Positions 196 through 64,000 of a DNA stretch of 64,000 nucleotides are shown here, one piece after another (the stretch's first letter is position 1; every line of letters begins with the position of its first letter). Both the position numbers and the translations under genes were made by a program. Source of the DNA: Gekko japonicus (Eukaryota); NCBI RefSeq assembly GCF_001447785.1, contig NW_015163753.1, forward strand, positions 1 through 64,000, read 5' to 3'. The notes beneath the pieces are model-generated. The model saw only the letters and a list, made by a program, of their open reading frames with translations, was not told the DNA's origin and ran no database searches.

Positions 196-985
196 CACAC
201 ATACATACATCATAGCCGATGTATGTAGAGAAAGAACATATCAACCATACAGGTTTTATACTCTGAGCACTTAAAATTGACTACGTGGATGCTTGATACA
301 GAAGTTGATTAGCAAATGATAATGCCTATTTATGCTAACGTATTAACTGGCAATTACTCCCAGGTAAGCATAAATACAGTTGTATCTTCAGAAAGATCTG
401 AGGCAGCTTAAGACAAATGGATGTTGTCATATGTTGAACATCGTCATGTCCCCAAACCATCATCACTTATGACTTCCTGAAAATGTTTCTAAACAGGACT
501 GAGACCAGGATGAAATATACTGTTTGTGTGTCACACAATCCAGAAATCTGTTCTAAGTGCTGCAGCTTTGGTTCAACACATATAAGTTATGACTCAGAAT
601 TAATTTCTTTGTAATAGCTCGAAATCCCTGCATGATAAGGAACATTGAAACTGTGTTATGATTTCTGGTAGTTTACATTTCTGAAGCTCTTTCTATTTAA
701 AGGTTTGTACCAATAAATTAGTGGTCTATTATAACATAGTGGATTGGACCTAGTCAGTTTTTTTACCTTTAATCTTTCCCAACTCACTGTGAGAGACTCT
801 TCAGATGGCATTAGTTTATGCAGGTCTCACAATCCCCATCATACCCTTTTGGGATGCCTTCTTCCAGGTTTACAGGTAGAAAAGGCAGTTGGATTCATCC
901 CAATGCATCAGTGTGTGCGAGAGTTTTACCTAAAAATGGTTTTTTAAAAAGAAATCCTGATGTGTTTTATTTTCAAGAAAAAGAG

Positions 986-1924
986 ATGGCAAATGCAAAA
1001 TGGGAAAACCAAACCAACATTGCAGAAGTAACTTTCCTGGGATTTGGGGATGTAAAGGACCTGCGGATTCCTCTCTTCTCTTTATTTCTTCTGATCTATG
1101 TCTACACGATGGCTGGCAACATCCTCATCATTGTCCTAGTAATTTCTGAACCACAGCTTCATACCCCCATGTACTTCTTCTTATGCAACTTGTCCTGCTT
1201 GGATAGCTGCACAGTTTGCACCATCCTCCCAAAGATGCTTGCTTCCTTCCTGACTGGGGATGGAAATATATCACTATGGGGCTGTATTGCTCAGTTTTAC
1301 TCTTTTGCTTCCCTAACCGCTACACAATGTTACCTCTTAGTGATGATGTCTTATGATCGATATTTAGCCATCTGCAAACCTCTGCACTATGTCTCTATTA
1401 TGAACACTAAGCTATGCATTCGTCTGGCAGCTGGCTCTTGGATCAATGGATTCATAGAGATGTCAGTATTTGTCATATTGATATCACATTTAGTATTCTG
1501 TGGCCCCAAGGATATTGACCATTTCTTCTGTGAAATAACCCAAATTGTGAAACTTTCTTGCAGTGAAACAAAGACCATCGAGCTTATGCTTACTGTGTTT
1601 TCATCCATCTTTACCCTGCCACCATTTATAGTAACTGTGGCATCCTACATATATATCATCAAGAACATCATGAGAATCCCATCCACCACTGGGAAGAAAA
1701 AGGCTTTCTCCACTTGTTCTTCTCATCTTATTGTAGTTTCAATTTTCTATGGGACCCTGGTACTTGTTTATGTGGTTCCGAAGACTGAGAAGTTGAGAGC
1801 ACTAAACAAAATCTTTGCTGTCTTTTATACTGTTTTGACTCCACTGCTCAATCCAATGATATATAGCTTGAGAAACCGAGAGATGAAGGAAGCCCTCAGA
1901 AAGTTTCTGAAGAAATGTGTCTAG
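986..1924 (+). CDS. Olfactory receptor, class II, OR11/OR6-like (312 aa)
   Basis: Single-exon 7TM ORF with OR motifs LHTPMYFFLCNLS, MSYDRYLAICKPLHY, KAFSTCSSHL and PMIYSLRN. Start placed at MANAKWENQT (N-glycosylation site), just after the acceptor-like tgtgttttattttcaag; the upstream part of the 818 ORF is probably intronic. Confidence 0.96.
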   Translation: MANAKWENQTNIAEVTFLGFGDVKDLRIPLFSLFLLIYVYTMAGNILIIVLVISEPQLHTPMYFFLCNLSCLDSCTVCTILPKMLASFLTGDGNISLWGCIAQFYSFASLTATQCYLLVMMSYDRYLAICKPLHYVSIMNTKLCIRLAAGSWINGFIEMSVFVILISHLVFCGPKDIDHFFCEITQIVKLSCSETKTIELMLTVFSSIFTLPPFIVTVASYIYIIKNIMRIPSTTGKKKAFSTCSSHLIVVSIFYGTLVLVYVVPKTEKLRALNKIFAVFYTVLTPLLNPMIYSLRNREMKEALRKFLKKCV

Positions 1925-8814: not shown

Positions 8815-9903
8815 TTTTGATATTTTCTTAGAAGCACCCTCTATAGTACCTAAAGACAGAATTGAATCCAATCACACCATGACAATGGAAGGGCAGTTTC
8901 TCTGTGCTTCAGCCTTCTGTAAAAAGAAGATTCTTAATTTAGTGGAAGGGAGTTATTACATCCAGTTCAATGACTCCAGTCCAACCATATGCTCTCACTG
9001 CTGCCCAGTAGTATTGCTACAGAAAGATAAATCCTTTTTGTTACGAAATTCATTTTTAGATACAGCAGTTGATTCCTCTTATTCTCTTTTGTCTTTTTTT
9101 TAAATAGAGGTTTCTTTGAAAAGAAATCAGTGCATTTTGCAACTTTTCAGTTGTTTTATGTTACATAACACAGGGTGGTGTTCTAGCAGGAGGAAAGGAA
9201 GGCTTGGAAAAAGATAACTTACCTGTGAGCATCTGCAGAATGAAATTCTGAAATTTTTCAGTATCTCCCTTCCCACCCTTCCCTTCTTTGAATAGCTCTT
9301 TGATTAAAGTGGATTTGATTAGCACTTGACTCTAAATTCCTAAAAAGTGGGTGAGAAACATGATTGTTGGATTTCAGGAAGAAATTTGCTAAATCAGAAT
9401 TAAGAAAATTTCTCTTAACAATGCACAGAGATTAAGATTGAATCCACCTCAAAGATAATTGTCCCTTCTATTACCAATGACAGTGGCAGATATTTCTTTG
9501 CAGAGTCAGGAACCACATGTCTAGTACACAGCTGCATGCACAGTTCCTTGTCCAGCTAAAGCATCATTCACAGAAGGCCATTTCTCTGATGGAATGAATT
9601 ATTTACAACCTTTGGATATGATTCAACAAGTTGTGAATTTCCAATATTTGTCCAGCAATGTTATTGCAAAGAGCAACAATCCAAAGGACCACATATTAAA
9701 ATTTGTAGGTCCTGAAATGACAGGAGAGCATATTCCGTTTTCGGGAATATGGCCAATGTGCAAATCAGTACTCAAATGATTCAATTTCTGTATTCAAAGA
9801 TTCTCTGTATTTATTTTCAAATTCCACATGCACTCTATTGAATTTGTAGACTTTGATTGTAGTACTATTAATATTCCCTTTCATATGTTCTTTTTTTTTT
9901 CAG

Positions 9904-9937
9904 GCCAAGGCCTGAATATGTGTGTGAGAAAGAGCAG
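9904..9937 (+). other. Putative upstream micro-exon of the OR at 11370 (contains an ATG at 9918)
   Basis: Strong acceptor (gttc-T10-cag|) and strong donor (CAG|gtgagt) 34 nt apart. Confidence 0.55.
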
Positions 9938-10353
9938 GTGAGTGAGAGAAAGAGAGATATACTATGTAATTACTGTAGCATGCTCAGTGTCTCCTAATCT
10001 CATTGTGTTCCTCTTCAGGCCCTGAATGCAAGCACACCTGTGGAAGGTAGACTTTCCAGCCTCCAGGTGGGGTCTGGGCCTGGGGATCTACCTGAATTAT
10101 AGCTGATCTCCATACAGCTGAGATCCATTCATTTGGAGAAAGTAGCTGTTGTACTACTAAGATTCCTTCCCCGCCCCAAACCCTGCCTTCCCTAGGCTCC
10201 CCCCTACCCCAAAAAAACCTCAGGAATTTCCTAACATGGAGCTGATAGCCCCAATGAAAAGAAAGCAAGCCTGGAGTTTGGAGCCAGGTAGGGCAGGAGT
10301 GTGTCAGCCAGGCTGAAAACTGATTGATTGATGAAGTCAATGTGTGTAATGTT

Positions 10354-10695
10354 TAGGGTTGCCAAATCTTATTCACTCACCGGCGGGGGGAGCGTCTTCC
10401 GCTCCGGGAGCTGGCTGGGGACATGTGTGTGCGTGCGCGCACCACCAGAACGTCACCGGAAGTGATGCACGATGTAGGCACATTGGGGGCGTGGCCCAGA
10501 TCATCGGGGGGGAAACCATATGGTTTCCCCCCCAATGATCTGGGCCACGCCCCCAACGTGCCCTACGTCGTGTGTCACCTCTGGTGACGCAGCTTCAGGG
10601 GCCGGGGTTCCCCCCAGGGCCAGATTCTGCCGCAGCGGAAATCGGGCCTCCAAAGCGGGGGTTTCCCCGCCCCCCACCCCCATTTGGCAGCCCTA
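10354..10695. mobile_element. hAT-type MITE
   Basis: TIRs tagggttgccaaa / tttggcagcccta; perfect 8-bp TSD gtaatgtt (10346-10353 and 10696-10703); CpG-rich internal palindrome centred on ccatatgg. Confidence 0.9.
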
Positions 10696-11369
10696 GTAAT
10701 GTTTGGGGTTGGGCACATGTGGGGCCTAGAGAAATAACACTTAGGCCTGCTAGTGAAATTTTAACTTAAAAAGAAGAAGAACTGGGAATCAGAAAGCAAT
10801 GAAGCTAAAGATTTTTAATAGATGGTGGGTCAGAAAGGAAAACAAACAGCAAAAAAGCAAGGGAGCCTAGTGGGGCAGTGAACACCCTGCCTCCTCCACT
10901 GCTGCCACCATTTCAGCTTTTTTCCTGCCTGTCCCTCATCTTGCACCTGCCTAGGAACTGGAACAGCTAATACGCCTTCCTCCTGTCTTTTTCAATATGT
11001 CTGAGAGGAAATGAGGTCAGGAGTGTCAGAGTTTGTTCTAGCTCCCAGGCAGGAAAGGGTCAGGGTGGTTTTGTTGTAGCAGCAGCAGCACCCTGGTTGA
11101 ACCAATAGATGTGTGTGTTCATGTGCATGTGTGAAACAAGAGAAGAACATAGACTGGGGAGGGGGAAGATGAGGAGGATGAAATCTAAAAGGCCACCAGC
11201 CCAGCATTTAAACAGAGCCATCCTTGGTTGATTATATTTATTTACGATGTTATCATAGGAAGATGACAGGTGCTTTCCCCCCCCTTTCAGTGAATCATTC
11301 CCCTGTCTCCAATGTGTGAGTGGCTCGTGTGGCGAAAACACAAAGGAAATCTTGGAAGAACTGCCAAGG

Positions 11370-12308
11370 ATGAACAGAACTCAACTGACATATTTTGTAT
11401 TCTTGGGACTGTCCAAAAGAATTGAATTGCAAGTGCTAATATTCTGTGTCTTTCTGCTAGTTTATATTTTCACCCTAATTGGGAACTGCTTAATTGTTGT
11501 GGTCACCCGAGTAGATGCCTCTCTTCAGACTCCCATGTATTTCTTCCTCGGGGTCCTGTCCATCCTAGACATTAGCTACTCTTCAGTCACTATCCCCAAG
11601 ATGCTGCTGAATGCACTTTCCAAAAATAAAAACATTTCCTACACAGGCTGCGCCACCCAAATGTACTTCTTGCTTTTCCTAGGGAGTACAGAATGTGTTC
11701 TCTTGGCTGTCATGGCCTATGACCGGTACATAGCCATATGCAATCCACTGAGATACATGGTCATCATGAACAAGAGAGTTTGCCTATCGCTGTCTTTGTT
11801 TTCGGTAATGAGTGGAAATGTGGTCTCATTGGTGCAAACAATGTGGGTATTCACTTTGCCATTCTGTGGTTCCAATAAGATCAATTATTTCTTTTGTGAC
11901 ATCCCTCCACTGATTGAGCTTTCTTGTGTCGATACTTCAATGTATGAGAGGCAGTTGATGACAGCCACCATTTTGGTTATATTCACTCCTTTTATTCTCA
12001 TCTTTGTCTCGTATGTCCTTATCATCTCCTCCATTTTAAAGATGGCATCCATTGATGGCAGGTGGAAAAGCTTCTCCACTTGTTCCTCACACCTCCTGGT
12101 GGTGATTTTGTACTATGGGACCAGCAGCTTGATTTATATAAAACCCAAATACATCTTCTCAGAAGACACAAGGAAGGTAGTTGCCTTGATATATACTACA
12201 ATAACACCCCTATTAAACCCTGCTATCTACAGCATAAGGAATAAAGACGTCCTAAGAGCCCTGAGGAAATACAGGGGCAGCAAGAAAACATTTTCACACA
12301 AAAAATAA
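11370..12308 (+). CDS. Olfactory receptor, class II, OR10-like (312 aa from MNRT; possibly longer, see findings)
   Basis: LQTPMYFFL, MAYDRYIAICNPLRY, FCDIPP, KSFSTCSSHL, PAIYSIRN; coding-exon acceptor ctttcag| at 11290. Confidence 0.96.
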   Translation: MNRTQLTYFVFLGLSKRIELQVLIFCVFLLVYIFTLIGNCLIVVVTRVDASLQTPMYFFLGVLSILDISYSSVTIPKMLLNALSKNKNISYTGCATQMYFLLFLGSTECVLLAVMAYDRYIAICNPLRYMVIMNKRVCLSLSLFSVMSGNVVSLVQTMWVFTLPFCGSNKINYFFCDIPPLIELSCVDTSMYERQLMTATILVIFTPFILIFVSYVLIISSILKMASIDGRWKSFSTCSSHLLVVILYYGTSSLIYIKPKYIFSEDTRKVVALIYTTITPLLNPAIYSIRNKDVLRALRKYRGSKKTFSHKK

Positions 12309-12405
12309 TATTAGGGTTTGCTGCAAAATCTGTTTCGATCATATTCTACAATCAAAAGGGCTCTTGTTTTTATTTATTTAGATATACTGGAGGGTACAGC
12401 AGAGC

Positions 12406-31910: not shown

Positions 31911-32346
31911 TTTAAAAAAACAAAGCTGAGGGGTTAGCAGCAAAGAGGGAAGAGGGCAGTTTAAAGGCTGAGGTGAAAGGGGTCTTTGTGACTGAGGAGA
32001 ACTATATAGAAGAGCTGTTTGGAACAGACTGAAAATGGTAAATGTGTAACTAAAGGATCCCAGTCTAAGGTATAAGACCTCAGTTGAAGAGTTTAGTGGA
32101 AGTGAAACATTCTTTCTTATACTTCACTTTAAAAAAACACAGCTGAGGGGTTAGCAGCAAAGAGGGAAAAGGGCAGTTTAAAGGCTGAGGTGAAAAGGGT
32201 CTTTCTGACTGAGGAGAACTATATAGAAGAGCTGTTTGGAACAGACTGAAAATGGTAAATGTGTAACTAAAGGATCCCAGTCTAAGGTATAAGACCTCAG
32301 TTGAAGAGTTTAGTGGAAGTGAAACATTCTTTCTTATACTTCACTT
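31911..32346 (+). repeat. 217-bp tandem duplication (2 copies), possibly inside an LTR-like element
   Basis: tttaaaaaaaca(a/c)agctgaggggttagc...ttcttatacttcac occurs twice, with about 4 mismatches. Confidence 0.93.
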
Positions 32347-33441: not shown

Positions 33442-34416
33442 CTATGTCTCATGGAAAAATATTTTTCGATTCATTGTCTTGTTCACCATCCTCTTTATTG
33501 CCCCACTGATCTCTTTGTTCCTTAAGCTGTAGATAATTGGGTTCAACATGGGAGTGATGACAGTGTACATCAAAGCCAACACTTTGTTACTGTCCTGTGA
33601 CTGAATGGATTTGGGCTTCAGGTAGACCAAGCTGCCACTCCCATAGTACAAAGTCACCACCAAGAGGTGTGAAGAGCAGGTGGAGAAGGCTTTCTGACGG
33701 CCTTCCACTGTTGTCATTTTTAGGATGCTGTAAATAATCAGAAGATAGGACACAACAATGAAGGAAAACGGTGTCAAAATAACTAGAATTGTTGCTGTAA
33801 AGAGCTGCATCTCATATGAAGAGGTGTCAATGCAAGATAGTTTAATAAGGGGTGGTATATCACAGAAGAAATAATTGATTTGATTTGATCCACAAAATGG
33901 CAGGGCAAAAACCCAAATTGTCTGAAGCAGAGAAACCAAATTGCCAAAGAACCATGACAGAACTGTTAGTGAAAGGCAAACTTTCTCATTCATGATGGTC
34001 ATGTACATCAGAGGTTTGCATATGGCTACATAACGATCATAGGCCATAGCTGCCAAGAGGAAGCATTCTGAAGCCCCTAGGAAAAGCATGAAGAACATTT
34101 GAGCAGCACAGCCAATATAGGAAATTCTCTTGTCCTCAGACAGGAAATTCACCAGCATTTTGGGGAGGGTAACTGAAGAGTAGCAGATATCCAAGAAGGA
34201 GAGGACCTTGAGAAAGAAATACATTGGTGTGTGAAGAGATGGGTCTATTAGGATCATAGTAAAAATTAGCATATTGCCCACTATTATGATTATGTAAATC
34301 AAGAGAAATACAACGAACAACAGCACCTGCAGTTCAGGATGATCGGTTAAACCCAGAAGGACAAATTCAGTCACTCCAGTAAAGTTGGTTGGCCTTGGTG
34401 AAATGATTTTCTTCAT
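33442..34416 (-). CDS. Olfactory receptor, class II, OR10-like (324 aa)
   Basis: LHTPMYFFL, MAYDRYVAICKPLMY, FCDIPP, KAFSTCSSHL, PIIYSLRN. Start placed at MKKII, directly after the acceptor gttcttccag|; clear paralog of the 11370 OR. Confidence 0.96.
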   Translation of the reverse strand: MKKIISPRPTNFTGVTEFVLLGLTDHPELQVLLFVVFLLIYIIIIVGNMLIFTMILIDPSLHTPMYFFLKVLSFLDICYSSVTLPKMLVNFLSEDKRISYIGCAAQMFFMLFLGASECFLLAAMAYDRYVAICKPLMYMTIMNEKVCLSLTVLSWFFGNLVSLLQTIWVFALPFCGSNQINYFFCDIPPLIKLSCIDTSSYEMQLFTATILVILTPFSFIVVSYLLIIYSILKMTTVEGRQKAFSTCSSHLLVVTLYYGSGSLVYLKPKSIQSQDSNKVLALMYTVITPMLNPIIYSLRNKEISGAIKRMVNKTMNRKIFFHET

Positions 34417-34611
34417 CTGGAAGAACATACCAGAAAGGGGTAGTTTTTGTTAATACTTAATTGAATGAAGAAATTATGACAGTTAATTTAACATTTGCTT
34501 TTTTTTGTTTTCTGCAGTCTAGAGACTTCTTTCTTACAATGAAAACAAACCTGAAAAAATTAAATACACTGTGAGTTTAAGGATTTAGGTGTTTGTAGCT
34601 TTCTGTGCTTT

Positions 34612-41298: not shown

Positions 41299-42252
41299 TT
41301 AGCTTAGGAATCTAGCTGGCATTATTTTTTCTTGAACCTTCTTCAAGGCTTGTTTCACCTCTTTATTTCTCAGGCTGTATATAAGGGGATTGACCATAGG
41401 AGTTAGGATCGTGTAAAAAGCTGAAAAGACTTTGTTCAGGTCTCCCAGTGCTTGGGTTTTGGGCATCATATAGACTATCATTAGTGTCCCATAGAAAATG
41501 GTAACCACTATGAGATGGGAGGAGCAAGTGGAGAAAGCCTTTTGCCTTCCTACAGAAGAGGGGATTCTCAAGATGGTGGTAATGATGCAAACATAGGATG
41601 TCAAGGTCAAGAGAAAAGGAGGCAATGTGAATATGCAAGCAATTATGAAAGCAAAAATGACTATTTTATGAGTGTCACTGCATGATAATTTTAGCAAGGG
41701 GTTGAAGTCACAAAAGAAATGATCGATGTCATTCCGCCCACAGAATGTTAACTGCAGCAGAGGAAACAATATGCTATTTCCTAGAAAGCCACTTATCCAA
41801 GACCCAACAATTAAATGGAGGCAATCTCTATTGTTCATGAGGGTTGTATAGTGCAAAGGTTTGCAGATGGCCAAGTATCTGTCATATGACATGGCAGACA
41901 AGAGGAAACATTCTGTTGCAGCGAGAGAACCAAAGAAATACATCTGTAAAAAACAGCTAATGAAAGAAATGGATCTGTTTCCAGTCACAAAACTGGCCAA
42001 CATCCTGGGGAGGATGGTAGAACTGTAGAAGGTCTCCAAGCAGGAAAGATTTCCCAGGAAGTAATACATGGGTGTGTGCAGATGTTGGTCAGCCACAACA
42101 AGAGCAACAATGAGGATGTTCCCAACCATGGTGACCATGTAGATAAACAGGACTACAAAGAAGAGAAATATCTGAAAATCTGGGTTATCTCCAAACCCCA
42201 GAAGGATAAATTCTGTAACCATCGTTTGGTTTTCCCACACTTTCTTTCCCAT
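41299..42252 (-). CDS. Olfactory receptor, class II, OR11/OR6-like (317 aa)
   Basis: LHTPMYYFLGNLS, MSYDRYLAICKPLHY, KAFSTCSSHL, PLIYSLRN; strong acceptor ttccttttttcttctag| 9 nt upstream of the ATG. Confidence 0.97.
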   Translation of the reverse strand: MGKKVWENQTMVTEFILLGFGDNPDFQIFLFFVVLFIYMVTMVGNILIVALVVADQHLHTPMYYFLGNLSCLETFYSSTILPRMLASFVTGNRSISFISCFLQMYFFGSLAATECFLLSAMSYDRYLAICKPLHYTTLMNNRDCLHLIVGSWISGFLGNSILFPLLQLTFCGRNDIDHFFCDFNPLLKLSCSDTHKIVIFAFIIACIFTLPPFLLTLTSYVCIITTILRIPSSVGRQKAFSTCSSHLIVVTIFYGTLMIVYMMPKTQALGDLNKVFSAFYTILTPMVNPLIYSLRNKEVKQALKKVQEKIMPARFLS

Positions 42253-43229
42253 AGATTGAATCTAGAAGAAAAAAGGAAATAATCTGATGTTTATACTTTT
42301 TTTTCCATAAAATGTTTTATAGAATCTGCTTCTTTTCACAAAAGTTTTCCCACTCTTTTATTTGACCTGTCTTTAAATATTACTTCCTGTGCCCATTTCC
42401 TTTAACAAGACTCATAAGGCTGTGGACATGGAAAATAGATGAAGTTCCCATGTCTACAGACGTTGCTTTGCACAAAGTACAAGCATTGCATTCTAGGTAC
42501 TGATGGCACCTTAGAAGATAGATGGTGAGCCACCATTCCCAATGAATTGTCATTTTCTGTTAGCTTATAGTGGAACAGTGCTCAACTGTGATCTGAGAGA
42601 GAGAGAGAGAGAGAGAGGTTACTATGTTATTAATAGATTGATTTAGCCAGTACACATCCACTTTTCAATAAGAAATTATCAAGGTGGGAGAAATGGCAGT
42701 ACACACAAGAACAGTAACAATACAACCCAACATGGGGGGGGGGGGAGATGAGTAACTAGGCTGTTCCAGTACAATCAAACAGACATAATGAAAACAACAG
42801 ATTTGTGTGGAAAAATCAGTCTTCAGAACTGATTGGGAGGGACAAAGATCCTAAATCTGGTGAACTTCATGAGAATTTATTCCAGGCTTGGGGACAGTAT
42901 GAGTTTTTTCTAAGAATATATTATTAAAAGAATGTGAACTTTAGGCAGAGAACTACTGACAGACCTCAAAAGCTATGTTTCTGCCACTATGTAAAAAATT
43001 ACTGTAAAAGTACATGCAGAGGTAGTCCTGGATAAACCCACTGAAGTCCAGGAAAATCCCACTGTTGCTGTTCAGTCCTAATAGAGTTACATCCTGCTAA
43101 AGTCACTGACTTCAGTAGACTTTAGAAGAGTGAAACCCTTTTTAGGATTGTGTTGTCATACTGTTGATTCCAGCCAACAGGATACTAATGAATATACAAT
43201 GATGGATTTAGTCACATATACATTTTTAA

Positions 43230-48651: not shown

Positions 48652-48977
48652 ATTTGTATCCTTAATCAAGGGTGATCCTGGTTTGGGATCCCTTGAAGTG
48701 TCTTGTCTTCCCATGTGTGGTAGACTCCATATCCCTCCTTATTATCTTCTTTCTATGGATTTCTGTTTGGATTTCTTTGCTATGGTTTTTACTTCTGACT
48801 ACTGCAAACACTTTATTTGTATCCTTAATCAAGGGTGATCCTGGTTTGGGATCCCTTGAAGTGTCTTGTCTTCCCATGTGTGGTAGACTCCATATCCCTC
48901 CTTATTATCTTCTTTCTATGGATTTCTGTTTGGATTTCTTTGCTATGGTTTTTACTTCTGACTACTGCAAACACTTT
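48652..48977 (+). repeat. 163-bp perfect tandem duplication in V2R intron 2
   Basis: Period 163 (48652, 48815); identical ORF text MILVWDPLKC... twice. Confidence 0.95.
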
Positions 48978-49725: not shown

Positions 49726-52700
49726 TTCTATCAAAATAGCATGCAAAGTCTTGCGAGATTTTATGGCAAGACTTTGAACACTGTTTTGGGCTGTAGCAAC
49801 CCAGACAGATGTCAAGGATGATGATGTGGGGGACAGAATAAGGAGCGGGGACATGGAAGAGGATGATACTCCACATATTCCTTACATGTAACTCACTTGT
49901 AAGCAATTGAAAATGGTAATTTAGAATCTCACACTGGATAGAGGGGAAAGTGTTGTTTATAACATCTGCAATTTAAACTAACAGTGAGGATTTGGGAAGT
50001 AATATTGGAAGATATTAGTGAAATTAGTATGTCCATTTGCAATTATTTCTTCTATGTATAATACACTGTGTTTTCCCCTGTAGTTCCCTTATGGTGTACA
50101 TGAAGCTATGTTCAGTAATAAAGCTCATCACCCTTCTCTGTACTGGATGGCACCAAGTGAAACTACTCTGCACAAGGGGATTGTCCAGCTCCTCCTGCAT
50201 TTCAGATGGACATGGATTGGCCTCATTGCTTCAGATGACTATGATGGAGAAAGCTTCACCCATATGTTGGCATTCTTGCTTGAACAAACTAACATTTGTG
50301 TTGCCTTCAGGCACAGAGTTCCAGAAATGGCCCTTCGAAATCACAAAAAAATTTCAAATCTACATTCAGCCCTTCTTTTGCCTGAAGTGAACGTGATTGC
50401 TGTCAGTGGAAATTCTCAGTCATTGTATGTCTTGCAATATCTCTTAGACCTTTATGAATTTCATATCCACCATCATATCGGAAAAGTTTGGATCACAACA
50501 GCTCAGTGGGATTTCACAAACACAATCCGCATGGACGGTTTCTGCACAGCAACTTTCCAGGGCACATTAAGTTTTTCAGGACACAAAAATGTAGTGAAAG
50601 GATTCCAGGACTTTCTCCAGACCTTAGAGCTCGATGAGGCACTCATGTATTTTGTCTGCATTTTCTGGCAAACAGCATTCCAATGTTGCCTTTCCCCTAA
50701 GAATATCAACAAGTGCAAAATTTGTACAGGGAATGAAAAATTGGACAGCCTGTCTAGGTTTATGTTTGAGATGCAAATGAATGATCAGAGCTACAGTATT
50801 TATAATGCTATCTATGCTATAGCCCATGCTTTGGATGCTGTATACTCGTCCAAGCCAAAATCAATGGCAGATAAAAGGAAATCTGATTATACAAAAGTTC
50901 AGCCCTGGCAGGTAAAGTTGTTACATGGGGGGGGGGGGATCTGGCTGTTGTGAGTGAAATTGTGTCTGAAGTCTGAACATGGTTACCCAAACTGTCTCTC
51001 TGGATATGCTGAGGTAGAGAAAGAAATACAATATCCATGCGTTACTTCATTTATACCCCAACTTTCTCCCCACTGACCCAAAGCATCTTACATCTCCTCT
51101 TCCATTTTATCCTCATAATGACACTGTGACATAGGCCTATTATGCATGTACAGCTTACTGCAGAGAAATCAAGCAGTCAGACCTTTAAACTTGACTTCAG
51201 ATATCATTCTTTTTTCTCTGGTATATTTATTCCGCTGCTACAACCAAAAAGGCCCGACTGCTCGGATTCTCTGCAGTAAGCTGTGTGTGCAGCCCAGCCT
51301 GGATTGCTGTGCCTGTGAGGAGCCAATGGCTCCCCACAGGCACAGGTTTATGCTGCCTCCTCCTGCTGCCTGGTTTAAACCAGGCCGTAGGAGAGGGCAG
51401 ACAAGCTGGGCTTGCTCAGCCTGCAGGGAGTTCCCTGGCAGGCACAGATCTGTGTTGGCTTCTCCTGATACCTGGTTTAAACTGGGAGGCAGGAGACAGC
51501 AGCCCAGCTGGGAGTCATTTCATTCTTTTTTACAGTGATCTGAGGCTAGTGATGGTCTCATATTGCTAAACTCATGCCGCATGTTAAAAAATATATACAA
51601 AACAGCAAGGGACACACAGATGAATGACAGAAGGTACATCACTGGCTGAACAACCTGGATGCGGGGGTGGGAGTGGCCTACGAGGGGCAGGAAAAGGTTG
51701 GTGGAATCTGAGGGAGTCTGTATGCTTTTGAATTACCTTTGGCGTGGAGGGGAAGCAAAAGCACTCTCAGAAAATCTGGGGAAACAGTGAACAGAAAGTG
51801 AACTGAGTGCTGAAGAGAGGGGAAACAATGCAAGATGAAAAAGAAGACCCAAAGAAAATGTATGGTGAAAACAAGGCAAAACACCCATGCATAATAGGCC
51901 ATAATTTAGGCTGAGATGTTTGTCCAGCCCAAGTTCCCACAACAAGGTACCATGGCAAAGTGATAACACAAACTTGGATCTTCTAGATCCTAGCCCAACA
52001 TTCTTAACACTGCCACACAACTGTTCTCATTGCTATTAATGAAGAAATTTTGTGTTGGATCCAGCAAAACTCAAACAGGAAAACATAGGGCTGCCAGGCA
52101 GTGCTGCAAGTAGCTCTAGGAATTGCTGGAAACCACAGAGTATTCAGTGCTTCCTAGAGCTATCCTATGTCACTTCCTTTTTTAAAATATTGGAATTAAA
52201 ATAAACAAATAATTGCAATGCCTAAACAGAAAAAAGGAGAAAATGTAACAACAATGATGGCAGGTCTACACATAAACATCTATAAAAGCTTTCCATTTTT
52301 TTTAACCAGAAGTGACATAGTGTAGCACAAAATACTGTTTTTTGCTCTCTCTCATTGCTGCTCAGAGGGGTGACATGCAACAGGAGTGGGGGCAGGGGAT
52401 TCCTCATCCCCCACTCCCACTGGAAGAATGGGTTCCCTAGGAAAAACAGTAGTTGTGCCTTGTAAAACAGTTTGTACAAGGTCTTCTCCAATATCTCCCA
52501 ACCTGTCACACACACACAAGATCTTATGTGTCAGTTTCCTCTCACTCCCATATTGTACCTCAGGTGAGACATTCTGTGAATGAAGAAGCTGCTAGATTCA
52601 CTTCTGGAACCCCTGGTACTGGTTGCACAATATCTTGCACAAGCAGAAAAACAAGTGGGGTTAGAATAGGGCTGACTGAGTACCAGCACCTACAGCAATC

Positions 52701-55260: not shown

Positions 55261-57896
55261 ATTAACAATAGTTCAAAACTAGTGCCAGTGCCATGATCAG
55301 AAATAAATGCAAAAAGATGTGTTGAATCTATCTGGCATCAATTTTATTGTGACACTTCAACTTTTCCCCCACAGAAAACATTATGTGTGTGTGTTTGTGT
55401 GTGTGTATAAAATGGGGTGGATCCAGCCAACTTTTTCATGCAGTCTTGCCCATGGTCCTTACTGCAGACCATGTCCCACATGGCTTTTGTTCATGCAGGT
55501 CCTATGATCCCCAGCAGAGCCTTTTTGTATGGTCTAAGGGGGACCCTACCATTTTTGCCAGTAGAAAAGATGGTTGGCCCTAAATCCATTGTTGTCATTG
55601 CTGGCTACAGTTGCTGTCCTAATCTCATTCAGATGCTGTTCACTGTATCAAGTGCCCAGAAGACCAGTATGCAAACAAGAACGAAGAGCGGAGTATCCCA
55701 AGGTTATAACTTTCCTGTCCTATCAAGAGCCCTTGGGGATAGTTTTGGTTTCTCTTGCAACGTCCCTTGCCGTCACCACAGTACTGGTGATACAAATCTT
55801 TCTAAAGAACTGGAACACTCCCATTGTCAAAGCCAACAATCACAATCTCACTTGCATTCTTCTCATCTCCATTCTACTTGGCTACCTCTCCTCCTTGTTA
55901 TTCATTGGCAAGCCTGGGAAGATGACCTGCCTTCTCCGGCAAACAGCTTTTGGAGTTATTTTCTCTGTTGCTATTTCTTGCATGTTGGCAAAAACTGCCA
56001 CTGTATTTCTGGCCTTCATGGCAATACAGCCAGGAAACAAGATGAGGAGATGGCTAGGGAAAAGAATGGCCAACTTCATTGTTCTCTCCTGCTCCCTCAT
56101 TCAAGAAGGTATTTGTATTGTCTGGCTATTGAGCTATCCTCCCTTTCCAGAGGTTGACATGTACTCGCAGGCTGGGCAAATCACAGTGGAATGTAATGAA
56201 GGCTCCACTGCCATGTTCTACACTGTCCTGGGCTTCATGGGGTTCCTGGCCCTCATCAGCTTCACTGTTGCTTTCTTTGTCAGAAGCCTGCCTGATACTT
56301 TCAATGAAGCCAAGTTCATCACTTTCAGCATGCTGGTGTTTTGCAGTGTTTGGATCTCTTTTATCACACCTTACCTGAGCACCAAAGGGAAAACCATAGT
56401 AGCTGTTGAAGTCTTTGCCATCTTGGCCTCCAACACTGGAATACTGGTTTGCATCTTTCTCCCCAAATGCTACATCATCTTGCTGAATCCTGATTTAAAC
56501 TTCAAGAAGTTTTTAATCGAGAAAAAGAATTATTCAACTTGATTATAAATTAATAGGTCTGATTACCCCCCTGTTGCAGTCATTTTTTACCAAAAAATAA
56601 AAAAGTGAAGCAAATGGTAGTTGCATGTACATGAATCTTTAGCCAAACTAAACAATTAATTGGAGGTGAGTTGCGGGTGTGAGAAATAAATTATGCAAAT
56701 GAAGGAGAAAAGTCATATTGGAACACTTTCACTTCACGTAGAATTCCTCATATTTTGTCTACGAAGGATTTGCCCTGCCCAAGTTTCTCAGTAATTTAGG
56801 CTCTCTGGCTAGGATATGGGAGACGGAATCTTTGCTCAACCATTAAGTTCACTGGATCAAAAGGACAATTACTCTTTTTCAGCCTAACACACCTCACAAG
56901 GTAGTTGTGAGAATACAGTGTGGGAGGTGTGACTGATGTATGCCATTCTCAACTCCTGAGAGGAAAACTGTATAAAAATGTAACTGATTCCCAAAACAAA
57001 AAGTATTAGAGAAAATCCAACAGCAATTTTAACCTATGCAAATGAAACCCATTTTAGCTCTGAATGTTTATGCAAGTCTACTATCATGTTTCCCATTACA
57101 ACATTTTCATCTTTTAGTTTTAGCTCTGAATGTTTATGCAAGTCTAGTATCATGTTTTCCATTACAATATTTTCATCTTTAGTCTTGGTGTTTGTACATG
57201 CATTTCAGCACTTGATGGCAGTAGTATAAATTGATAAATTTCATGTGTAATTGAACTATCACAGACTATGACCAAATGATTACTTCCTATGAAACACTGT
57301 TGTTCCATTCAAACCATGATTTAATAAAATTAATTATAATTTTTGTTGGCTATTCCACTACCTAACTTTCACTATTCCACTAACTATGGAATAGTTTTCC
57401 ATTGGCAAAAAAAGGAAGAAACCTTTCATAGCCCAGAAAGGTTGCACTGAGTATCATGATACCTGAATGGTTAAAAGACATGTGGGGATTGGGTCTCTTA
57501 TGGGGAGAAGAATGAGATAAGATTCAATAAAATCCTTGGATGGATCCGATGGAAGATCAGCCATACCATGGTGTGAAGTACATTAATTAGTCACAGAGTC
57601 TGAACTACAATTTTACACTATGCACATTTGCAGATATGCTGACTTAATCCTTATGTTACCCACTGTGACCCTTGCTGCATTGCAGGTCAGTTCACTGGAA
57701 CTGAACAAAGGCAGTGAAATCAGCAAGCATTTGTCAAGACAGAGCAGAATCTGAGTAATCACAAATTGTGCATAATGTACCATGATTTTGTATTATGTCT
57801 GAACTGAAACAGTGTGTCTTAATTGAATTGCTATACAGATCCAGCTGTGATTCATGATATGTCAAATATCCAAATGATGAGACATCAAAGGATGGA

Positions 57897-62579: not shown

Positions 62580-63910
62580 CACTGAAGAACTATACAAGAA
62601 AGACCTTGATGTCCTTGACAACCACAACGGTATAATCACTGACCTCGAGCCAGACATCCTGCAATGTGAAGTTAAATAGGCCTTAGAAAGCATTACTAAC
62701 AACAAAGGTAGTGGAGGTGATGGTATCCCAGCTGAGCTATTCAAAGTCTTAGAAGATGATGCTGTTAAAGTGCTGCACTCAATTTGCCAGCAAATTTGGA
62801 AAACGCAACAGTGGCCACAGGATTGGAAAAGGTCAGTATACATTCCAATCCCAAAGAAGGGCAATGCCAAGGAATGTTCAAACTATCGCACAATTGCACT
62901 CATATCACAAACCAGCAAGGTCATGCTCAAGATTGTACAAGCTAGGCTTCAGCAGTACAGGGATAGAGAACTGCCAGAAGTACAAGCTGGGTTTTGAAGA
63001 GGTAGAGGAACTAGAGATCAAATTGCCAACATTCGCTGGATTATGGAGAAAGCAAGAGAGTACCAGAAAAACATCTACTTCTGCTTCATTGACTATGCTA
63101 AAGCCTTTGACTGTGTGGATCACAACAAACTATGGCAGGTCCTTAAAGAGATGGGAGTACCAGACCACCTCACATGTCTCTTGAGAAACCTGTATAAAGG
63201 TCAAGAAGCGACAGTTAGAACCGGATATGGAACAACTGATTGGTTTAGCATAGGAAAAGGAGTACGACAAGGATGATATTGTCACCTTGCTTATTTAATA
63301 TATATCATTCCTTGGCAAATAGAAGGGGAAGTCATGGAAGTGGTGACAGACTTCATGTTCTTGGGATCCCACATCACCGCAGACTGTGACTGCAGCCATG
63401 AAATTAAAAGACACCTGCTCCTTCGGAGGAAAGCGATGGCGAACCTAAACAGCATGATAAAAAGTAGAGACATCACCCTGCCAACAAAAGTCCACATGGT
63501 CAAAGCAATGGTATTCCCAGTAGTCATGTATGGCTGCGAGAGTTGGACTATAAGGAAGGCTGAGCGCCGAAGAATAGATTCTTTTGAACTATGGTGCTGG
63601 AGAAGACTCTTGAGAGTCCCTTGGACTGCAAGAAGATCAAATCAGTCAATCCTAAAAGAAATCAACCCTGACTGTTCCCTGGAAGGCCAGATAATGAAAC
63701 TGAAGTTCAAATACTTTGGCCACCACATGAGAAGGGAGCACTCACTGGAGAAGACCCTGATGCTGGGAAAGATTGAAGGTCAAAGAAGATGGGGACAGCA
63801 AAGGATGAGATGGTTAGACAGTGTCATAGATGCAATGAACATGAAATTGAGCAAACTTCAGAGGACGGCAGAAGACCGGAAGGCCTGGCGTGATTTGGTC
63901 CATGGGGTCC
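62580..63910 (+). mobile_element. Bov-B (RTE) LINE, defective partial ORF
   Basis: Translates to ICQQIWKTQQWPQDWKRS, IPKKGNAKECSNYRTIAL, CFIDYAKAFDCVDH, KGVRQG, VVMYGCESWT, ELWCWRRLLRVPWTARRSN; in-frame stops and an internal deletion near 63305. Confidence 0.96.
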
Positions 63911-64000
63911 TGAAAGGTTAAAATGTTCCCCCACTGGTTTTTGAATGTTGTGGTTTCTAATAGTAGTAGTAGAAAGAGTAAGAGTCCAGTAGCACCTTAA

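What the first reader, a model, noticed from the sequence alone, without database searches (positions are those of the whole stretch)
9904..12308. Candidate split-coding OR: a 34-nt micro-exon adds an in-frame, Cys-rich 33-aa N-terminus
Seen in sequence: a strong acceptor (T10-cag|9904) and donor (CAG|gtgagt, 9937) bracket an ATG at 9918 with A at -3. Joining it to the acceptor at 11290 (ATG TGT GTG AGA AAG AGC AG|T GAA TCA...) stays in frame without stops into the OR ORF. The product would begin MCVRKSSESFPCLQCVSGSCGENTKEILEELPR-MNRT (345 aa, 4 extra extracellular Cys). Established: OR coding regions are normally intronless, and two-exon ORs are a minority. Inference: this OR10-like receptor may have an extended N-terminus that single-exon annotation misses. 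Being in frame has a 1-in-3 chance on its own.
Basis: partly seen in the sequence, partly recalled or inferred. Interest (0 to 1): 0.7.

Follow-up and report, generated by a model that had tools for sequence, protein, structure and literature searches.

The report
Gecko odorant receptor, young upstream ATG
This is an intact gecko smell-receptor gene that is complete in one exon; its likely leader exon appears to have shifted its splice point recently and so picked up an extra in-frame start codon, which relatives do not place in that exon, so it is probably a common by-product and not a conserved two-exon receptor.

Summary
The sequence observation is right. Acceptor 9903, 34-nt exon, ATG 9918, donor 9938 and acceptor 11290 join in frame to 345 aa, and no control OR shows such a pattern at matched stringency (0 of 57), so the exon is probably real. 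A conserved split-coding OR is not supported. The main exon alone gives a complete 312-aa OR (MNRT). Five of seven orthologs start at a Met that aligns to a TTG at 11352 here. Two related species carry a strong donor at 9910, upstream of the ATG, and one lacks the 9938 GT. Best reading: the donor shifted 28 nt in this lineage and moved an intronic ATG into a leader exon; some extended protein may be made by scanning, as a by-product. In-frame upstream ATGs occur in 13.6-21.5% of mammalian ORs (PMC7055050). No RNA covered the junction. A residual chance (about 0.1) remains that the main-exon leader is an old, frame-kept extension: a Pogona model is open in the same phase, and 6+28 nt in relatives equals 34 nt here.

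The parts
9889..9903 (+). Acceptor-like site (poly-T + CAG) of the candidate leader exon
   Evidence: 12/12 pyrimidines; CAG and the next 6 bases show no listed change in organism C; poly-T length varies (C -3, X1 +2)
9904..9937 (+). Candidate 34-nt leader exon (this lineage's form)
   Evidence: no RNA cover
9910..9915 (+). Dead position of the donor that relatives carry (AAG|GTAAGG in C and D; GTCTGA in X1; GCCTGA here)
   Evidence: read from the listed changes and gaps; 8/9 consensus
9918..9920 (+). Upstream ATG, in frame with the OR only if 9937 joins 11291 directly
   Evidence: present in C and, after re-placing gaps, in D, but downstream of their 9910 donor
9938..9943 (+). Perfect-consensus donor GTGAGT, the only >=8/9 donor between 2606 and 11369
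   Evidence: T9939A in organism C, flanks changed and 3 gapped bases in D
9885..9887 (+). Second in-frame ATG if the exon reaches further upstream (356 aa); weak context; broken by +2 T in X1
10019..10046 (+). Second candidate micro-exon (28 nt; acceptor 10/12, donor 6/9) with its own ATG at 10026 (7-aa uORF)
   Evidence: few listed changes in C and D
10050..10770 (.). Interspersed repeats inside the intron
   Evidence: very high contig depth in X1 bins 10156-10771
11272..11290 (+). Acceptor of the coding exon
   Evidence: 12/12 pyrimidines, the only >=10/12 acceptor after 10196
11291..11351 (+). Leader part of the main exon: 20 open codons, likely 5' UTR
   Evidence: unchanged in X1; open and in like phase in Pogona P0121
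11312..11314 (+). Out-of-frame ATG, 37-aa frame overlapping the OR start, weak context
11352..11354 (+). TTG at the column where orthologs have their start Met (context ATC TTG G)
   Evidence: shared by X1
11370..12308 (+). Single-exon OR10A7-like coding sequence, 312 aa, MNRT start with N-glycosylation sequon
   Evidence: Pfam 7tm_4 E 2.8e-51; database protein P0001 is this 312-aa form

Best explanation
An intact single-exon gecko OR10A7-like receptor (312 aa from ATG 11370) has a likely non-coding leader exon whose splice donor probably shifted 28 nt in this lineage, moving a formerly intronic ATG (9918) into the mRNA, where it happens to be in frame. Shown: the ORF, the motifs, the relatives' donor at 9910, the missing 9938 GT in organism C, and the TTG at the ancestral Met. 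Inferred: the old donor decayed and the new one took over; the ancestral start at 11352 could be lost because a second Met six codons on already gave a full receptor; ribosomes would reach 9918 first and may make some 345-aa protein when 9937 joins 11291, or a 7-8-aa uORF when the 10019 exon or a longer exon is used; either way the added tail is a recent by-product without a selected role.
For: Main exon suffices: 312 aa, Pfam 7tm_4, NRT sequon. The ortholog clade (100/99, 7 rows; P0143 added) starts at the Met aligned to 11352 in 5 of 7 other members (P0003, P0008, P0013, P0016, P0143), and the TTG sits in an A-3/G+4 context. Both relatives with orthologous DNA (2 of 4 runs) have an 8/9 donor at 9910 upstream of the ATG; C has T9939A; X1 keeps the GT at 9910 in a decayed context, which gives the direction of change. 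The first 50 residues of the open frame found only the window's own protein. In-frame uATGs are in 13.6% of human and 21.5% of mouse ORs, and 171 mouse genes had a multi-exon longest ORF of which 41 passed curation (PMC7055050 passages).
Against: The Pogona model P0121 is open for 41 residues before its Met, with an acceptor-like S|E step 21 codons upstream against 20 here; only 2 of 9 control ORs with leaders >=45 nt are open. The 11352 Met is also absent from the Eublepharis and Varanus models, and Varanus has no second Met at the Asn. In relatives 9904-9909 plus 10019-10046 is 34 nt and open in the OR frame, the same length as the exon here.
Confidence: 0.6

Rival explanations
1. A young but functional split-coding OR: in this gecko lineage the 9937/11291 join is the main isoform, ATG 9918 is the main start, and the 33-aa tail replaced the lost 11352 start.
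For: Perfect donor and two 12/12 acceptors, 0 of 57 controls alike; ATG 9918 has A at -3 and comes first in scanning; ATG, donor and leader show no listed change in X1; loss of the 11352 ATG in the same lineage.
Against: Met 11370 makes the upstream start unnecessary; X1 is only about 1% different, so its agreement says little; inclusion of 10019-10046 or one exon 9904-10046 ends the frame at 7-8 aa; no homolog carries this tail.
Confidence: 0.15
2. An old squamate N-terminal extension: the main-exon leader is coding across squamates and is fed by upstream micro-exons that were remodelled while keeping frame (6+28 nt in relatives, 34 nt here).
For: Pogona leader open, same phase, shares CLQ; 6+28=34 and open in frame; ATG 9885 to 9909 is phase 1 here, in C (-3) and by a loose end in D (+3); 0 listed changes in C over 10010-10032 against 10 in 9959-10009 (Fisher p 0.026); Varanus model lacks the N-terminal Met and Asn.
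Against: Leader similarity to Pogona is weak: 1275 of 5000 shuffles reach the local score, 630 of 5000 the anchored score, 238 of 5163 non-coding 20-mers the exon-only score. D shows no such conservation (7/51 against 2/18, p 1.0). X1 has +2 in the poly-T. The Pogona extension is an automated model, its DNA unseen, and likely reads through the intron. These patterns were found after looking.
Confidence: 0.12
3. No exon here: the acceptor is a poly-T run and the donor a chance product of a TG/GA tract; the real leader exons lie elsewhere.
For: The stretch 9917-9958 attracts unrelated simple-repeat contigs in all 4 runs; exon-like pairs are no commoner on the sense strand than the antisense strand in controls (8 against 8, 28 against 29); a 6-nt exon in relatives is unusually small.
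Against: Three lineages each hold a strong donor within 28 nt, although such sites are rare (113 sense at >=8/9 per 300 kb); no other >=8/9 donor lies between 2606 and 11369.
Confidence: 0.13

Closest known systems
Split OR genes of mouse and human (Barnes et al. 2020, PMC7055050; 41 mouse, 13 human; e.g. Olfr1123/OR10AG1, intron at aa 5, 1332/1384 bp)
   Same: Start codon in an upstream exon, intron (1353 bp here) inside the extracellular N-terminus, intact 7TM frame; second class has a single-exon isoform too.
   Different: Curated cases keep the Met and junction in orthologs and have RNA support; most replace or complete the N-terminus (301-344 aa in supplement 4). Here the junction is not kept in relatives, no RNA was seen, and a downstream Met gives 312 aa.
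ORs with an in-frame upstream ATG or uORF in 5' UTR exons (Table 1 of PMC7055050: uATG 13.6/21.5%, uORF 54.5/86.4%)
   Same: Leader exons with ATGs ahead of a complete single-exon ORF; outcome depends on the splice form.
   Different: Here the origin can be traced to a likely donor shift, alongside loss of the ancestral start.
Reptile OR10A7-like receptors (Eublepharis P0005 85%, Hemicordylus P0008, Sceloporus P0013, Pogona P0016/P0121, Varanus P0011)
   Same: One well-supported clade with the window's protein; turtle relatives already have database isoforms with alternative N-termini (P0030/P0122, P0136/P0038).
   Different: The window's copy lost the MEE-type start; none of the listed models carries its tail.

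Membership tests
Vertebrate olfactory receptor (OR10A7-like reptile clade) | Intact 300-350-aa ORF with OR 7TM domain | tested here: met
   312 aa, Pfam 7tm_4 E 2.8e-51
Vertebrate olfactory receptor (OR10A7-like reptile clade) | Groups with named OR10A7-like proteins | tested here: met
   100/99 clade of 7 of 41 rows; best hits named OR10A7-like
Split OR gene (Barnes 2020) | Full-length ORF open across an exon junction | tested here: met
   345 aa in silico
Split OR gene (Barnes 2020) | No conserved downstream in-frame ATG that gives >300 aa | tested here: not met
   ATG 11370 gives 312 aa and is shared by P0003 and P0005
Split OR gene (Barnes 2020) | Splice junction conserved in orthologs | tested here: not met
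   T9939A in organism C; donor at 9910 in C and D (2 of 4 runs informative)
Split OR gene (Barnes 2020) | Initiation Met conserved at the same relative position | tested here: not met
   The ATG letters are kept in C and D but lie behind their 9910 donor; 0 of 7 ortholog models start with this peptide
Split OR gene (Barnes 2020) | Transcript evidence for the junction | tested here: inconclusive
   3 RNA or RNA-like runs laid, none covered 9904-11400 outside repeats
OR with in-frame uATG in a 5' UTR exon | Upstream ATG in a spliced leader ahead of a complete single-exon ORF | tested here: inconclusive
   Met in sequence; splicing itself not observed
OR with in-frame uATG in a 5' UTR exon | Translation mainly from the downstream Met | not testable with these tools
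   needs ribosome profiling or N-terminal proteomics

The most novel reading that the evidence does not exclude
A squamate OR lineage carries a 200-million-year-old coding extension in its main-exon leader, fed by micro-exons that were rebuilt in one gecko lineage (6+28 nt replaced by one 34-nt exon through a donor shift) without losing the frame, letting the canonical start be lost repeatedly.
Probability: 0.1. Interest if true: 0.55.

Novelty: new member of a known kind. Interest (0 to 1): 0.22.

Why it matters
As most likely read, little: it is one more OR with an upstream in-frame ATG, a class that holds 14-22% of mammalian ORs, and a caution that strong splice motifs plus an open frame do not make a split OR. 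It is a tidy candidate example of splice-donor turnover that exonizes an ATG, one route by which split ORs could arise. If the extension proved old and translated, it would extend split ORs from mammals to squamates and show frame-preserving exon remodelling in a chemoreceptor.

Tried and rejected
RNA: no RNA holder was listed for the coding exon. X8, X10 (RNA by guess, contigs) and X18 (raw RNA, about 3% read, tissue not given) had no cover of the exon, junction or start; X8 and X10 held only 151-base contigs at 12056-12392, depth 2-3. This is no evidence either way. Relatives X3 and X16 gave only 31-45-base simple-repeat matches. No paralog of 9650-10050 exists in the own genome search (1 match, itself), so no paralog test. 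No strict O/E promoter motif between 1925 and 11370 (motif recalled), so the start site and any further upstream exon were not located; 4 of 19 donors at >=7/9 upstream could also supply an in-frame ATG. Cys richness as a functional sign was rejected (3.4% of controls; one Cys matched in Pogona). Searches of earlier findings returned nothing. Literature searches listed no paper on split ORs in reptiles or on this gene; the library lacks most subscription journals. No structure was predicted, since a short tail would not decide the question.

Full report
Observation. The 34-nt exon 9904-9937 joined to 11291 gives an open 345-aa product with four Cys in 33 added residues. The gene lies in a gecko OR cluster: best hits are OR10A7-like proteins of Eublepharis (85%) and other squamates, and Pfam 7tm_4 matches at E 2.8e-51. 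The database protein for this locus is the 312-aa form from MNRT (P0001).

Is it more than chance? I took 60 of the 127 OR matches in the own genome, chosen for having 5 kb of upstream DNA; 57 had an in-frame ATG to anchor on. With a simple consensus score (recalled motif, no trained model), 0 of 57 give a split start at this gene's stringency, 2 of 57 at donor >=8/acceptor >=10, and 18 of 57 at donor >=7/acceptor >=9. A 9/9 donor occurs 6 times in 300 kb, a 12/12 acceptor 24 times in 281 kb. So the exon signals are unusual and the exon is probably real. The in-frame join is not unusual: this gene has five different in-frame donors at relaxed thresholds, 38% of non-coding 20-codon stretches are stop-free, and 32 of 928 stop-free 27-codon stretches have four or more Cys. 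The score does not separate sense from antisense in controls, so it cannot prove an exon.

The ancestral start. A tree of 41 proteins puts the window's OR in a 100/99 clade with six squamate proteins; a Phrynocephalus protein at 81% to the Pogona one was added and is not in the tree. Five of these seven begin at a Met that aligns with the Leu of TTG 11352, which sits in an A-3/G+4 context. Geckos have a second Met six codons on, so the loss is harmless; Eublepharis starts there too. Varanus starts at MFVFL, without the N-terminal Asn. These are automated models, so they do not exclude upstream exons. X1, a DNA run about 1% different from the window, has no change in 11291-11369 (all 9 differences of that contig are placed elsewhere), so the TTG is not an assembly error.

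The upstream exon in relatives. I laid four runs of other species on 9868-10062. Two held the orthologous contig (X6, organism C; X7, organism D); two gave only simple-repeat matches. Reading the listed changes and gaps in order, C and D both have AAG|GTAAGG at 9909/9910, an 8/9 donor nine bases ahead of the ATG. The window has a dead GC there, and X1 keeps the GT in a decayed context, which points to decay in this lineage. C has T9939A, so the finding's donor is absent (assigned to the long contig by depth sums and distance from its end). D has C9935A, G9937A and three gapped bases in 9938-9944; a weak GT may remain. The ATG letters are kept in both but would be intronic. Limits: 6 of 24 changes in C and 5 of 19 in D could not be placed, changes near piece ends may be unlisted, and the three species are about equally distant (4 shared, 6 C-only, 5 D-only changes in 9959-10027).

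Other splice forms. A second candidate exon, 10019-10046, follows after an 81-nt intron. Including it, or using one exon 9904-10046, ends the ATG-9918 frame at 8 or 7 aa. An out-of-frame ATG at 11312 overlaps the OR start.

RNA. None of three RNA or RNA-like runs covered the exon or junction. The splice is unobserved.

Mechanism. Shown: a complete single-exon OR; a donor at 9910 in relatives and at 9938 here; loss of the 11352 Met. Inferred: the donor shifted 28 nt and exonized an ATG; scanning ribosomes would meet it first, in a middling context, and make some 345-aa protein if 9937 joins 11291, or a short uORF otherwise. I put the chance that some extended protein is made in this species at about one in three (judgement), and the chance that it is a by-product rather than a selected feature at 0.6 of all readings.

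Evidence the other way. The newer Pogona model P0121 is open for 41 residues before its Met, with an FSFS-E step that looks like the same acceptor, 21 codons upstream against 20 here; 2 of 9 control ORs with leaders of 45 nt or more are open. The similarity itself is weak (p about 0.05 to 0.25 by three controls) and only one Cys is shared. In relatives 9904-9909 plus 10019-10046 add up to 34 nt and are open in the OR frame. C shows 0 changes in 10010-10032 against 10 in the 51 bases before (p 0.026), D does not. These were noticed after the fact and keep an old extension at about 0.1.

Comparison with what is known. Barnes et al. 2020 (PMC7055050; passages seen, supplement search, supplementary file 4 read whole) curated 41 mouse and 13 human split ORs, required a conserved Met and junction, and removed cases with a conserved downstream ATG giving over 300 aa; 171 mouse genes had a multi-exon longest ORF before filtering, and 13.6% of human and 21.5% of mouse ORs have an in-frame uATG. 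This locus would work like their second class if spliced as proposed, but fails three membership tests. PMC12400810 (passages) treats rattlesnake ORs as single-exon. PMC7452722 (passages) added nothing. Searches (listings only) showed no paper on reptile split ORs. Turtle OR10A7-like database isoforms already differ at the N-terminus.

Verdict. Observation confirmed; interpretation partly supported; a new member of a known kind (OR with an upstream in-frame ATG), with a likely recent donor shift as its one point of note. Interest 0.22.

Noticed in passing
window 9910-9917 and 10019-10027: The bases that replaced the old donor (4 of 5 changed against C and D) resemble the start of the 10019 exon, as if copied from it or from a spliced transcript in one event.
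   Followed up: no
window 50084-50953 and 55565-56542 (+): Exons of a class C GPCR, V2R-like by recall (Pfam ANF_receptor and 7tm_3), lie inside the OR cluster.
   Followed up: partly
window 33442-34449 (-): A second OR10A7-like gene of the sister clade (92% to Heteronotia P0032), with its acceptor directly before the ATG; Euleptes model P0002 fuses the orthologs of this gene and of the OR at 41299-42261.
   Followed up: partly
window 815-1924 (+): Another OR whose frame stays open with two ATGs for about 57 codons before the usual start, through its acceptor: the same kind of chance extension.
   Followed up: no
P0011 (Varanus komodoensis ortholog): Model starts at MFVFL and lacks the N-terminal Met and glycosylation Asn; it could be a true split OR, a damaged gene or a model error.
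   Followed up: no
P0030/P0122/P0130 and P0136/P0038 (turtles): Database isoforms of OR10A7-like genes with alternative N-termini of 2-11 residues, possible reptile split ORs.
   Followed up: partly
window 11257-11258 and 11316-11321: A weaker AT-rich AG that would be in frame with a phase-0 donor, and a donor-like TGT|GTGAGT (6/9) inside the main-exon leader.
   Followed up: no
window 31911-32346 and 48652-48977: Two-copy tandem duplications of 217 and 163 bases at 98-100% identity, possibly assembly artefacts.
   Followed up: no
window 63277-63921 (+): 214-aa open frame resembling the end of an RTE/BovB-type LINE protein (recalled; no Pfam hit).
   Followed up: partly
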